Assembly (NCBI GenBank): GCA_049968235.1
Contig: JBMFRC010000063.1
Location: forward strand, 1 to 520
From: Candidatus Hydrogenedens sp.
GTDB lineage: Bacteria; Hydrogenedentota; Hydrogenedentia; Hydrogenedentales; Hydrogenedentaceae
Direction: 5' to 3'
DNA: 520 bases
In this document: positions 1-520 of the stretch, piece after piece
How the letters are laid out: each line of letters begins with the position of its first letter
Position numbering within the stretch: the stretch's first letter is position 1
Position numbers and translations under genes: made by a program
The notes under the pieces: generated by a model
Database searches by the model: none
What the model was told of the DNA's origin: nothing
The model's input: only the letters and a program-made list of their open reading frames with translations

Positions 1-32
1 CCATAAGATTACTGCTTTACCTTATTAAACAT

Positions 33-245
33 ATGAATTATAACGACCTTACAGTTTTTATTGATACTAAAAAGGTTTTAGAAGACTTAGGAATAAAAAA
101 AGCTACATATCACTTATGGAAGAAAAAGTTAATAAAAGAAGGATACATAGAAAAAGTAAATCCATATGTTTATAAAATAAAGCCTTACAGTTTTATAAAG
201 GGAAATATGAAAAACACTTTAGAAAACGAGATAGGATTAAATTAA
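33..245 (+). CDS. Small (70 aa), lysine-rich helix-turn-helix DNA-binding protein; excisionase/AlpA-like or plasmid/phage regulatory protein. The 5' end is uncertain and the frame is open to the window edge.
   Basis: Only ORF in the six-frame track. It runs from ATG at 33-35 to TAA at 243-245. Codon usage matches the local AT-rich composition (AAA, TTA, ATA, GAA; Trp as TGG). Residues about 13-35 (KKVLEDLGIKKATYHLWKKKLIKEGYI) fit a helix-turn-helix pattern of helix, G-containing turn and recognition helix, followed by a Y/K-rich wing-like segment (EKVNPYVYKIKPYSF). The protein is basic overall. There is no GGAGG-like RBS upstream, and no in-frame stop between position 3 and 33, so the gene may start upstream of the window. 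Confidence 0.6.
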   Translation: MNYNDLTVFIDTKKVLEDLGIKKATYHLWKKKLIKEGYIEKVNPYVYKIKPYSFIKGNMKNTLENEIGLN

Positions 246-265
246 GATTTTTTTTTGACAGTCAA
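236..265 (-). promoter_or_regulatory. Speculative minus-strand sigma70-like promoter: -35 TTGACT (plus coordinates 260-265), 18-bp spacer, -10 TTTAAT (plus coordinates 236-241). It would be antisense to the ORF.
   Basis: Hexamers read on the reverse complement, each matching consensus at 5 of 6 positions. In DNA this AT-rich such matches arise easily by chance. Confidence 0.15.
246..262 (+). repeat. Copy 1 of the recurring motif GAT-T(9)-GAC-AGT, overlapping the palindrome.
   Basis: gatttttttttgacagt. It shares the pattern GA + T-run + 2-3 nt + AGT with 377-391 and 481-494, and is followed by an A8 tract. Confidence 0.5.
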
Positions 266-271
266 AAAAAA
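249..271. repeat. Perfect palindrome TTTTTTTT-GAC-A-GTC-AAAAAAAA with 11-bp arms, placed 3 nt after the stop codon. Candidate dimeric operator; possibly a weak bidirectional A/U-rich hairpin.
   Basis: Read directly from the sequence: T249-T256, GAC 257-259, A260, GTC 261-263, A264-A271. The reverse complement of the left arm equals the right arm. The stem would be almost entirely A:T pairs. It contains TTGACA at 255-260. Confidence 0.7.
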
Positions 272-310
272 CGGCTTTTAGATGCTATAAAAGATAAAAT
301 AAAAAAATAA

Positions 311-373
311 AATAAAGTTTATCAATTATTTAATTAAGTTAATTAAAGTTAAAATAAGTAAAGAATTGATAAA
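311..373 (+). repeat. Direct repeat copy 1 (about 60 bp), bounded by 10-bp inverted termini TTTATCAATT (318-327) and AATTGATAAA (364-373) with a 36-bp spacer. Candidate iteron or protein-binding unit.
   Basis: Core 318-342 tttatcaattatttaattaagttaa matches 408-432 with 1 mismatch in 25. The flanking 343-370 matches 433-460 at 23 of 28 positions, with no gaps. The terminal inverted repeat is perfect over 10 bp. The internal 333-352 holds a roughly 10-bp tandem (ATTAAGTTAA / TTAAAGTTAA). Confidence 0.7.
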
Positions 374-392
374 AGAGATTTTTTTAATAGTG
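374..392 (+). repeat. Copy 2 of the T-run motif: AGAGATTTTTTTA-ATAGTG, followed by an A8 tract (393-400).
   Basis: The 13-bp string agagattttttta at 374-386 is identical to 478-490. The arrangement of T7, short spacer, then A8 mimics the palindrome at 249-271 but with a degenerate centre. Confidence 0.5.
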
Positions 393-399
393 AAAAAAA

Positions 400-461
400 A
401 ATAAATCTTTATCAATTATTTAGTTAAGTTAAATAAAGAAAAAATAAATAAAAAATTGATT
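400..461 (+). repeat. Direct repeat copy 2, in 90-bp register with copy 1. Termini TTTATCAATT (408-417) and AATTGAT (454-460), again with a 36-bp spacer.
   Basis: tttatcaattatttagttaagttaa at 408-432 against 318-342, with one A/G difference. Upstream, aataaa at 400-405 matches 311-316. The terminal inverted-repeat spacing is the same as in copy 1. A third partial core, tttatcaat, begins at 469-477; it forms a 6-bp-arm inverted repeat (ATTGAT 455-460 / ATCAAT 472-477, 11-bp spacer) with the right terminus of copy 2. Confidence 0.7.
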
Positions 462-477
462 TAAGTTATTTATCAAT

Positions 478-494
478 AGAGATTTTTTTACAGT
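478..494 (+). repeat. Copy 3 of the T-run motif: AGAGATTTTTTTA-CAGT, followed by (TA)7 instead of an A8 tract.
   Basis: agagattttttta at 478-490 is identical to 374-386. CAGT at 491-494 matches the CAGT at 259-262 in copy 1. Confidence 0.5.
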
Positions 495-507
495 ATATAT
501 ATATATA
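494..507. repeat. (TA)7 dinucleotide microsatellite.
   Basis: tatatatatatata read directly at 494-507, immediately after T-run motif copy 3 and 10 nt before an ATG at 518-520. Confidence 0.8.
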
Positions 508-520
508 AGATAAGAATATG

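What the first reader, a model, noticed from the sequence alone, without database searches (positions are those of the whole stretch)
311..479. About 60-bp repeat units in 90-bp register, each capped by inverted TTTATCAATT / AATTGATAAA boxes exactly 36 bp apart
There are two near-identical units, with a 25-bp core at 24 of 25 matches and flanks at 23 of 28. A third unit starts at 469. Each unit carries perfect or near-perfect inverted terminal boxes at a fixed 36-bp spacing, so each unit presents two oppositely oriented copies of a TTATCAAT-type box. This array of oriented boxes at a fixed spacing is what iteron origins, parC/parS-like centromeres and integrase/Xis arm-site clusters look like, and it sits directly downstream of a small HTH protein gene that could bind it. 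The internal 10-bp tandem TTAAGTTAA / TTAAAGTTAA at about one helical turn is consistent with phased protein contacts or DNA bending. No named system matches these box sequences that I can recognise.
Basis: partly seen in the sequence, partly recalled or inferred. Interest (0 to 1): 0.6.

Follow-up and report, generated by a model that had tools for sequence, protein, structure and literature searches.

The report
Duplicated origin leader of RepL plasmid
The repeats are real but ordinary: they are worn-down tandem copies of the sequence beside the replication origin of a tiny hot-spring-type RepL plasmid, and they lack the sites its replication protein is predicted to bind.

Summary
The repeat is real: 303-381 and 393-471 are 81% identical, which no shuffle reached. 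TTATCAAT occurs four times against 0.07 expected. Two details fail. The box at 469 is out of the 90-bp register, and the "70-aa HTH gene" is the open-ended C-terminal 80 codons of a 134-aa RepL replication initiator.

About 90 metagenomic relatives were recovered, 19 of them closed circles of 1.1-4.8 kb. They share one layout: a conserved core (TATATATAAGATAAGA), a short leader, two inverted repeats 21-22 bp apart, a promoter, then repL. The inverted-repeat arms track the RepL recognition helix, so they are the likely RepL sites.

The window ends in that conserved core (495-516). The region 246-494 holds two to three G/C-depleted tandem copies of the close clade's own palindrome/core/box module. 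What survives best is a 13-bp box fitting the IHF consensus WATCAANNNNTTR, with four hits against 0.12 expected. The cognate RepL inverted repeat is absent.

Best reading: a duplicated origin leader acting as an AT-rich, bendable accessory flank of the origin. It is unlikely to be an iteron array and is not a centromere or an integrase arm-site cluster. Neutral decay and a single-strand origin remain live rivals. This is a new member of a known kind, of modest interest.

The parts
3..245 (+). C-terminal 80 codons plus stop of repL. The gene is cut by the contig end; full length in relatives is 134 aa.
   Evidence: The frame is open to the window's left edge. It is 96% identical to the 134-aa P0002. 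Pfam RepL scores 21.8 bits against a cut-off of 20.3 for the fragment, and 34.7 bits for P0002.
246..271 (.). 'pal': the GA-T9-GACAGTC-A8 perfect palindrome placed directly after the repL stop codon.
   Evidence: Identical elements follow the repL stop in L090 843-868 and L002 944-967, and lie before the origin core in L005 392 and L002 136. L094 has three copies at module junctions. As an RNA hairpin it is weak: -5.1 kcal/mol, z -0.8.
284..301 (+). CR': a G-depleted copy of the conserved origin core (GCTATAAAAGATAAAATA), with its leader running on to box 1.
   Evidence: Window 283-345 aligns to the core-plus-box stretch of L093 and of L002. No shuffle out of 300 reached either score. The differences are mostly G-to-A changes and small deletions.
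318..342 (+). Box 1: TTTATCAATTATTTAATTAAGTTAA. It contains TATCAATTATTTA at 320-332, which fits WATCAANNNNTTR.
   Evidence: It is homologous to the box between the core and the inverted repeats in L002 209-234, L004, and L091-L094.
359..373 (-). Inverted box 1: TATCAATTCTTTA on the minus strand, which is AATTGATAAA at 364-373 on the plus strand.
   Evidence: It forms the base of the unit-1 hairpin in the single-strand fold.
375..401 (.). pal': a degenerate copy of the palindrome (GAGATTTTTTTAATAGTGAAAAAAAAA).
   Evidence: Repeat family D2 pairs 233-271 with 362-400 at 74% identity, and inverted repeat I4 pairs 247-270 with 379-402 at 83%.
408..432 (+). Box 2: TTTATCAATTATTTAGTTAAGTTAA, with the consensus hit at 410-422.
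   Evidence: It matches L002 209-233 at 23 of 25.
449..463 (-). Inverted box 2: AATCAATTTTTTA on the minus strand, which is AATTGATTTA at 454-463 on the plus strand.
469..478 (+). Box 3: TTTATCAATA. It is out of register and lacks the TTR part of the consensus.
479..494 (+). Half palindrome: GAGATTTTTTTACAGT, abutting the origin core.
   Evidence: Repeat family D5 pairs 371-386 with 475-490 at 15 of 16.
495..516 (+). CR: the intact family-wide conserved origin core (ATATATATATATAAGATAAGAA).
   Evidence: Exact 17-20-nt matches lie 125-208 bp upstream of repL in relatives whose RepL is only 40-50% identical. The stretch is contiguous with L005 460-480.

Best explanation
The window is a fragment of a very small RepL-type plasmid. 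The repeats fill the roughly 10% G+C stretch between the 3' end of repL and the plasmid's conserved origin core (CR, 495-516).

What it is (high confidence):
- The stretch is two to three tandem, G/C-depleted duplicates of a module found in the close clade: palindrome, core, then box.
- The duplicates are bounded by copies of the T-run/GACAGTC/A-run palindrome.
- The copies lack the RepL-specific inverted repeats. They keep a 13-bp box that fits the IHF-type consensus WATCAANNNNTTR, present in both orientations.

What it does (inferred, lower confidence):
- It serves as an accessory, architectural and easily melted flank of the origin.
- A host IHF/HU-type bending protein, or simply the intrinsic bendability and low stability of the DNA, would help RepL open or nick the adjacent core. 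RepL itself would be bound at its own inverted repeats just beyond the window.
- It is not a RepL iteron array, a partition centromere or a recombinase arm-site cluster.

Shown: the homology, the layout, the absence of cognate RepL sites and the consensus matches. Inferred: protein binding, origin function and mode of replication.
For: - The gene is RepL.
- A family-wide layout of core, leader with an ATCAA element, two inverted repeats, promoter and repL is seen in at least 23 loci. The inverted repeats sit 21-22 bp apart, and their arms track the RepL recognition helix across 26 loci.
- The window ends in the core.
- Window 283-345 is significantly homologous to the core-plus-box stretch of L093 and L002, with G-to-A decay; no shuffle out of 300 matched the score.
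- Palindrome copies bound the units and also sit at module junctions in the closed circle L094.
- The box sits beside the core in every close relative. Its variable positions fall mainly at the first two of the four N positions of the consensus.
- The IHF consensus, confirmed in the literature, hits 4 times in the window against 0.12 expected; no shuffle out of 200 reached that.
- Three of the only four C residues on the plus strand of 301-480 lie in ATCAA.
- No cognate AGTCTAA/TTAGACT site is present.
- G+C is 8-13% across 301-480.
- Published precedent: pHW126-like replicons, whose Rep is a distant relative of RepL, have a conserved region with the nick beside it, accessory repeats, and inverted-repeat operators bound most strongly by Rep.
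Against: - The units are unique to this contig and are not conserved at this position in any relative.
- The box is not significantly better conserved than its flanks between the two units: 2 differences in 33 columns against 7 in 35, p = 0.15.
- The IHF consensus was defined for enterobacteria and was tried only after the box had been seen. The host is unknown, and all the DNA here is AT-rich.
- The 520-nt contig ends inside the core, so the box, inverted repeats and promoter expected downstream are inferred from relatives, not seen.
- No binding or replication data exist for this plasmid family.
Confidence: 0.4

Rival explanations
1. Neutral relic. The units are decaying products of duplication, by slippage, recombination at the palindromes or aberrant rolling-circle termination. 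They have no sequence-specific function beyond being spacer DNA.
For: - There is G-to-A decay and there are small deletions relative to intact modules.
- The inverted repeats are absent, and promoter-like sites are fewer than chance (2 against 4.1 expected).
- The units occur in no relative.
- Box and flank conservation do not differ significantly (p = 0.15).
- Relatives also carry tandem or partial extra modules: L002 has two, and L090 has a remnant.
Against: - All five ATCAA cores survive in a stretch that has lost almost every other C.
- Four of the five also keep the full 13-bp consensus.
- Very small plasmids are expected to shed useless DNA.
Confidence: 0.28
2. Single-strand origin (sso). 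If the plasmid replicates by rolling circle, the two imperfect palindromes fold in the displaced strand and prime lagging-strand synthesis. They lie just upstream of the double-strand origin, as in many rolling-circle plasmids.
For: - Each unit folds as a hairpin closed by the inverted boxes. For 300-495 on the plus strand the energy is -24.2 kcal/mol with z = -4.4, and no shuffle out of 200 folded as well.
- The position directly upstream of the candidate origin core matches the usual sso placement quoted.
- The window has none of the G/C-containing hairpins that the repL-only circles L093 and L094 carry.
- pSN2-type RepL plasmids are classed as rolling-circle plasmids with an ssoA.
Against: - The stems are almost pure A-T.
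- The close relative L003 comes from a hot-spring metagenome, where such stems would be marginal.
- No ssoA CS-6 motif (TAGCG) is present, and there is no Rfam match.
- The minus strand folds less distinctively (z = -2.4), and it is not known which strand would be displaced.
- The replication mode of RepL plasmids is unresolved.
- The hairpins are not conserved in relatives.
Confidence: 0.13
3. RepL-bound iteron or copy-control array. RepL binds the oriented boxes to initiate replication, handcuff origins or exert incompatibility.
For: - The array is adjacent to repL and to the origin core.
- The motif is strongly over-represented.
- pIGMS31 has iteron-like repeats that are needed for origin function and exert incompatibility.
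Against: - The repeats that co-vary with RepL are the paired inverted repeats, not the box.
- The box is the same in plasmids with AGTCTAA, AGTGTAA, AGTTGCA, ATTGTAA and TGTGTAA inverted repeats.
- The cognate inverted repeat is absent from the window.
- There are only two units, 90 bp apart, with boxes in mixed orientation.
Confidence: 0.1
4. Partition centromere (parC/parS-like) or integrase/Xis arm-site cluster.
For: Only the general look of oriented repeated boxes.
Against: - Closed relatives of 1.3-3.1 kb encode repL alone, repL plus a MobA/VirD2-like relaxase, or (L090) those two plus one ORF with no Pfam family. None has a par or int gene.
- No tRNA or attachment-site context is evident.
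Confidence: 0.02
5. Assembly artefact: a chimeric or collapsed low-complexity contig.
For: The contig is 520 nt, comes from a metagenome-assembled genome, is extremely AT-rich and is cut at both ends.
Against: The order repL, palindrome, origin core, and the individual elements, all have independent counterparts in contigs from other samples.
Confidence: 0.04

Closest known systems
pSN2-family RepL plasmids of staphylococci (Pfam PF05732)
   Same: - A small initiator with a helix-turn-helix region that matches the RepL model.
- Very small, mostly cryptic circular plasmids.
   Different: - No nucleotide similarity, and only one weak protein hit (31% identity) in PLSDB.
- The protein has 134 residues; the review puts pSN2-family RepL at about 18 kDa.
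- Several members carry a relaxase, whereas pSN2 plasmids are said to have no mobilisation functions.
- The sources are thermal habitats, and no ssoA motif is present.
pHW126-like replicons (pHW126, pIGRK, pIGMS31)
   Same: Their layout is a conserved region with the nick beside it, repeated accessory elements, and inverted-repeat operators directly before rep that Rep binds best. G+C is low, and the plasmids consist of rep plus mob. Here the layout is core, leader, paired inverted repeats, promoter and repL.
   Different: - Those plasmids have four 20-bp direct iterons; none occurs between the core and the inverted repeats in the relatives examined here.
- The window's repeats lie upstream of the core and are decayed copies of the module itself.
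- Rep homology to pHW126 Rep was not tested. The literature reports only a distant relationship.
IHF sites in plasmid and chromosomal origins (E. coli consensus WATCAANNNNTTR)
   Same: - Four consensus matches lie in AT-rich DNA next to an origin core.
- The same consensus sits beside the core in relatives.
   Different: The host and its nucleoid proteins are unknown. No binding was tested. The consensus comes from enterobacteria.
pC194/pUB110-type double-strand origin
   Same: The origin core of L022 and the complement of the pC194 origin share AAGATAAGAAAG at 12 of 12 positions. The window's core matches at 10 of 12.
   Different: - The nick core CTTG/ATA is replaced by CTTATAT.
- RepL shows no His-hydrophobic-His (HUH) motif on reading the alignment and matches only RepL and helix-turn-helix families in Pfam.
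- The resemblance was noticed after the fact.

Membership tests
RepL-family plasmid replicon (PF05732) | The initiator matches the RepL profile above Pfam's gathering score. | tested here: met
   The window fragment scores 21.8 bits against a cut-off of 20.3. The 96%-identical full-length P0002 scores 34.7 bits.
RepL-family plasmid replicon (PF05732) | A small autonomous circular molecule. | tested here: inconclusive
   Nineteen relatives are closed circles of 1120-4769 bp. The window itself is an open 520-nt contig.
RepL-family plasmid replicon (PF05732) | Rolling-circle replication with a double-strand origin and an ssoA, as assigned to pSN2. | not testable with these tools
   The replication mode of RepL plasmids is itself unsettled in the literature.
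Iteron origin (pSC101 / R6K / Rep_3 type) | Three or more direct repeats of about 17-22 bp, in one orientation, roughly 22 bp apart. | tested here: not met
   There are two units 90 bp apart. The boxes are in mixed orientation, at 320(+), 359(-), 410(+) and 449(-).
Iteron origin (pSC101 / R6K / Rep_3 type) | The repeat sequence is specific to the plasmid's own initiator and co-varies with it. | tested here: not met
   The box is invariant across plasmids with different RepL helices. The paired inverted repeats are what co-vary. The cognate inverted repeat is absent from the window.
pHW126-like REP module | A conserved region upstream of rep, shared across the family. | tested here: met
   The TATATATA[AG]ATAAGA core lies 125-208 bp upstream of repL in at least 23 loci (352 bp in L002, which has two modules), and at window 495-516.
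pHW126-like REP module | Inverted-repeat operators directly before rep. | tested here: inconclusive
   They are present in relatives. That part of the replicon lies outside the window.
pHW126-like REP module | Four iteron-like direct repeats of about 20 bp within the minimal origin. | tested here: not met
   No such repeats occur between the core and the inverted repeats in the relatives read. The window's units are upstream of the core and are 80-90 nt long.
IHF binding site | A match to WATCAANNNNTTR. | tested here: met
   Four matches against 0.12 expected; no shuffle out of 200 reached that. The consensus was confirmed in the literature.
IHF binding site | The host encodes IHF, and the protein binds and bends the site. 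| not testable with these tools
   The host is unknown. The taxonomic labels of the bins carrying relatives are mutually inconsistent.
ssoA-type single-strand origin | An extensive imperfect palindrome in non-coding DNA upstream of the double-strand origin. | tested here: met
   The single-strand fold of 300-495 (plus strand) has z = -4.4.
ssoA-type single-strand origin | The conserved CS-6 (TAGCGT) and RSB motifs. | tested here: not met
   There is no TAGCG or CGCTA in the window.
Partition centromere (parC/parS) | Cognate partition genes (parA, parM or tubZ with an adaptor) on the same replicon. | tested here: not met
   Closed relatives encode repL alone, repL plus a relaxase, or those two plus one unassigned ORF.
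DnaA-box cluster | TTATCCACA-type 9-mers. | tested here: not met
   There is no exact match. By direct reading, the boxes TTATCAATT and TTATCAATA differ from the consensus at 3 and 2 positions.
pC194-type double-strand origin | The nick core CTTGATA together with an HUH-type Rep. | tested here: not met
   The core shares only the TTCTTATCTT part. No His-hydrophobic-His motif is seen in the RepL alignment, and Pfam gives only RepL and helix-turn-helix matches.

The most novel reading that the evidence does not exclude
The units are selected rather than decaying, and the contig is about 60% of a complete circle of roughly 0.83-0.87 kb that carries nothing but repL and its origin.

The size estimate adds the 520 nt of the window to about 310 nt for the missing leader and the 5' end of repL. 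That figure assumes the spacing from core to start codon seen in relatives.

In that case the array of four opposed architectural-protein sites and AT-rich hairpins would replace the G/C-hairpin and direct-repeat modules carried by the 1.3-1.5-kb relatives. The plasmid would then rank among the smallest autonomous replicons known.
Probability: 0.15. Interest if true: 0.55.

Novelty: new member of a known kind. Interest (0 to 1): 0.3.

Why it matters
On its own the repeat array is a lineage-specific duplication in a plasmid origin region, which is ordinary plasmid biology.

The wider value lies in the family that turned up around it. These are very small RepL plasmids, seen so far only in metagenomes, largely from thermal habitats. 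Several features make them useful:
- Closed circles go down to 1.1 kb.
- A sharply conserved origin core resembles part of the pC194 nick region.
- Paired inverted repeats track the initiator's recognition helix.

How RepL-type initiators, which lack the usual rolling-circle catalytic motifs, start replication is still unsettled. This family offers many natural variants for testing that, and possibly minimal replicons for vectors in thermophiles.

Tried and rejected
Searches that found nothing useful:
- blastn of the whole window against PLSDB plasmids and INPHARED phages gave no match.
- An exact 32-mer of unit 2 in one genome per species gave no match.
- Rfam at a permissive E-value gave only chance-level miRNA and CRISPR-repeat hits, none in the window.
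- The intrinsic-terminator scan found none, and promoter-like sites were fewer than in shuffles.
- A profile search of solved structures gave only chance-level hits.
- NCBIfam gave nothing for RepL.
- The review by Khan (1997), which might give the pSN2 origin sequence, is not held in the library.

Ideas tested and dropped:
- The palindrome as an RNA terminator hairpin: -5.1 kcal/mol, z -0.8, not distinctive.
- A DnaA-box reading and an ssoA CS-6 motif: both absent.
- A RepL half-site in the units: absent.
- Selective conservation of the boxes between the two units: not significant, p = 0.15.
- Folding at 50-70 C with DNA parameters gave non-monotonic energies, so I do not use those values.
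- The inverted boxes as relics of the -35 hexamer of a former repL promoter (ACTTGATAAG in L002 module A against AATTGATAAA here). This is possible, but at 10 of 14 matches it is too weak to claim.

Full report
**1. The observation**

The window is 19% G+C. Positions 301-480 are 8-13% G+C, so chance repeats are a real concern. The repeat nevertheless stands:
- Positions 303-381 and 393-471 are 81% identical over 79 nt at a spacing of 90.
- A gapped local alignment of the two halves scores 89, against a shuffle mean of 32 and a maximum of 62. No shuffle out of 300 reached it.
- The 25-nt core matches at 24 of 25.
- TTATCAAT occurs four times on the two strands, against 0.07 expected.
- The 36-nt gaps between TTTATCAATT and the inverted AATTGATAAA (AATTGATTTA in unit 2) are as described.

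Several points need correcting:
- The equal spacing follows from the units being ungapped copies of each other. It is not independent evidence.
- The box at 469-478 is 61 bp from box 2, not 90. It leads into GAGATTTTTTTACAGT, not into a third unit (family D5).
- The period-10 tandem is confined to unit 1.

**2. The neighbouring gene**

The "70-aa HTH gene" is open at the left edge of the window. Its 80 codons are 96% identical to the C-terminal part of 134-aa proteins that match Pfam RepL. The fragment scores 21.8 bits against a cut-off of 20.3, and full-length P0002 scores 34.7 bits.

The window is the whole of a 520-nt contig from a metagenome-assembled genome. NCBI labels its protein "replication/maintenance protein RepL, partial".

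**3. Relatives**

Four close contigs (85-96% RepL identity) and about 85 more distant ones (37-60%) were recovered.
- Nineteen are closed circles of 1120-4769 bp.
- L094 (1336 bp) and L093 (1503 bp) encode only RepL.
- L001 (2065 bp) adds a MobA/VirD2-like relaxase.
- L090 (3085 bp) adds the relaxase and one further ORF with no Pfam family.

The family is small, with 104 cluster representatives at E up to 1e-3 among 1.84 billion proteins. It is almost absent from PLSDB, where there is one hit at 31% identity.

The close relative L003 comes from SRR6344961, the Arkashin Schurf hot spring in Kamchatka. Many distant relatives carry bin labels of taxa typical of hot habitats, such as Desulfurococcales, Pyrodictiaceae and Desulfurobacterium. 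Those labels are mutually inconsistent, so the host is unknown.

**4. Family layout**

At least 23 loci share the same order of elements:
- a conserved core, (C)TATATATA[AG]ATAAGA;
- a 20-30-bp leader containing an ATCAA/TTGAT element;
- two tandem inverted repeats with T-rich centres;
- a sigma-70-like promoter, often overlapped by a further copy of the inverted repeat;
- a Shine-Dalgarno sequence and repL.

The core lies 125-208 bp before the start codon. The paired inverted repeats are 21-22 bp apart.

The arms of the inverted repeats differ between plasmids and track the RepL recognition-helix type across 26 loci. For example, KKATYHLWKKK goes with AGTCTAA, DKTTFYRWL with AGTTGCA, and SDRTYRNWIKD with CGGAAA. 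I infer that these inverted repeats are the RepL binding sites, serving both origin recognition and autoregulation.

This parallels the published pHW126/pIGMS31 module, whose Rep is a distant relative of RepL. That module has a conserved region with the mapped nick beside it, accessory repeats, and inverted repeats before rep that bind Rep most strongly.

**5. Where the finding sits**

The last 22 bases of the window (495-516) are the intact core. There are exact 17-20-nt matches in L022, L006, L008, L007, L084 and L086, and the stretch is contiguous with L005. The repeats therefore fill the interval between the repL stop codon and the origin core.

In the close clade, a perfect palindrome T8-9-GACAGTC-A8 ("pal") follows the repL stop and recurs before the core. 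A box, GTTTATTTATCAAT-YAC-TTAGTTA, lies between the core and the inverted repeats.

Window 283-345 aligns significantly to the core-plus-box stretch of L093 and of L002. No shuffle out of 300 reached either score. Most G residues are replaced by A, and there are small deletions.

The map of the window is:
- pal, 246-271
- decayed core, 284-301
- box 1, 318-342
- inverted box 1, 364-373
- decayed pal, 375-401
- box 2, 408-432
- inverted box 2, 454-463
- box 3, 469-478
- half pal, 479-494
- intact core, 495-516

Relatives show similar reshuffling. L002 carries two complete modules with different inverted repeats (AGTGTAA and AGTCTAA). L090 keeps a remnant of the first type.

**6. What the units keep and what they lack**

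They lack the inverted repeat predicted for this RepL. AGTCTAA-N4-TTAGACT has no match with up to 3 mismatches, and the half-site is not enriched.

They keep the box. It fits WATCAANNNNTTR, the IHF consensus (confirmed in the literature), four times: at 320 and 410 on the plus strand and at 359 and 449 on the minus strand. Only 0.12 hits are expected, and no shuffle out of 200 reached four.

The same consensus is met by the box beside the core in L001-L003, L005 and L090-L094. A second copy follows pal in L005, L093 and L094. The positions that vary between plasmids are mainly the first two of the four N positions.

Three of the four C residues on the plus strand of 301-480 are the C of ATCAA.

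Because the box stays the same while RepL and its inverted repeats change, it is more likely read by a host factor, or acts structurally, than by RepL.

Three caveats apply:
- The consensus was tried only after the box had been seen.
- The host is unknown.
- Box and flank conservation between the two units do not differ significantly (p = 0.15).

**7. Mechanism and rivals**

My best reading (about 0.4) is an accessory origin flank: very AT-rich, bendable DNA with four opposed sites for an architectural protein, immediately upstream of the core. It would assist opening or nicking of the core by RepL bound at its own inverted repeats just beyond the contig end.

- Neutral decay of a duplication (about 0.28) is hard to exclude, because the units are unique to this contig.
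- A single-strand origin (about 0.13) is suggested by the two hairpins (z = -4.4 on the plus strand) and by their position upstream of the candidate double-strand origin. Against it, the stems are almost pure A-T, there is no ssoA motif, and it is unsettled whether RepL plasmids replicate by rolling circle at all.
- RepL iterons (about 0.1) conflict with the co-variation data.
- A centromere or recombinase arm sites (about 0.02) have no supporting genes in any closed relative.

If replication is by rolling circle, two active cores in direct repeat would delete the interval between them, as shown for pHW126. That would fit the upstream copy being degraded. The degradation is only relative, though, because L001's own core also departs from the consensus.

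**8. Comparison with known systems, and novelty**

The protein is a member of the RepL family. The replicon layout works like a pHW126-type module, but it lacks that module's 20-bp direct iterons.

The origin core shares AAGATAAGAAAG, at 12 of 12 in L022 and 10 of 12 in the window, with the complement of the pC194 origin. It lacks the CTTGATA nick core. RepL shows no HUH motif on reading the alignment. I treat this resemblance as a lead only.

The repeat array is a lineage-specific duplication. The plasmid is a new member of a known kind. Interest is modest for the finding itself and somewhat higher for the family-wide origin layout found around it.

Noticed in passing
window 495-516, and 125-208 bp upstream of repL in relatives (e.g. 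L022 372-391, L008 503-519, L006 890-908, L084 2479-2496): TATATATA[AG]ATAAGA is the most conserved non-coding motif of the whole family. It persists where RepL identity is only 40-50%. It shares AAGATAAGAAAG with the complement of the pC194 double-strand origin. It is a candidate nick or unwinding site.
   Followed up: partly
window 246-271; L094 1-23, 733-755 and 941-994; L002 136 and 944; L005 392; L090 843 and 1994-2050: The T8-9-GACAGTC-A8 palindrome sits at every module junction in the close clade. A 'split' form also occurs, T8-GAC...about 30 nt...GGTC-A8. It does not co-vary with RepL and is a weak RNA hairpin. It may be a recombination or junction site. Its function is unexplained.
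   Followed up: partly
26 loci, region 40-180 bp upstream of repL: Paired inverted repeats 21-22 bp apart have arm sequences that track the RepL recognition-helix type. This is a natural specificity table for a winged-helix initiator.
   Followed up: yes
L002 168-300 and 346-470; L090 165-215: L002 carries two tandem origin-like modules with the same box but different inverted repeats (AGTGTAA and AGTCTAA). L090 keeps only a remnant of the first type.
   Followed up: partly
L094 1037-1188; L001 about 1310-1420; L090 about 2140-2230; L022 1-90 and 1361-1400: Three to four direct repeats, (A)TGGT..AACCTCTTT with a period of 32-43 bp, occur in the close clade. L022 has GATTGGTTGAGTTTGGTTTCACCTTTT instead. 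These are the genuinely iteron-like arrays of these plasmids, and the window has none of them.
   Followed up: partly
L001 929-965; L002 993-1030; L093 1364-1400; L094 780-815: A long hairpin (ACCAGAgGAG...CTCcTCTGGT) downstream of repL differs between plasmids on both arms while still pairing. A long-range stem GTCTTTCGGGCTTA / TAAGCCCGAAAGAC lies next to it. It is a candidate single-strand origin or small RNA. It has no Rfam match.
   Followed up: no
whole window, and circles L065, L008, L063, L094: The window runs from repL codon 55 to the origin core in 520 nt. If nothing else intervenes, the circle would be about 0.83-0.87 kb. The smallest closed relatives are 1120-1336 bp.
   Followed up: partly
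record titles of the window, L084-L088: These tiny plasmids are binned into unrelated genomes: Ca. Hydrogenedens, Desulfurococcales, Pyrodictiaceae, Nanopusillaceae and Desulfurobacterium. The bin labels therefore say nothing reliable about the host.
   Followed up: no
L090 893-1708; L005 1381-2299: A 271-aa ORF downstream of repL has many repeats of a ...I(S/Y)DWFD... motif and no Pfam family.
   Followed up: no
C-termini of P0006, P0008, P0015, P0016, P0021-P0023: Several RepL homologues carry a 25-30-residue Lys/Glu-rich tail (KKQKEREEKQ...KKKRKKK) that is absent from the window's lineage.
   Followed up: no
window 326-415, minus strand: A 29-codon TTG-start ORF (MIKIYFFFTIKK...) spans unit 1. 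It is most likely a by-product of AT-rich sequence.
   Followed up: no
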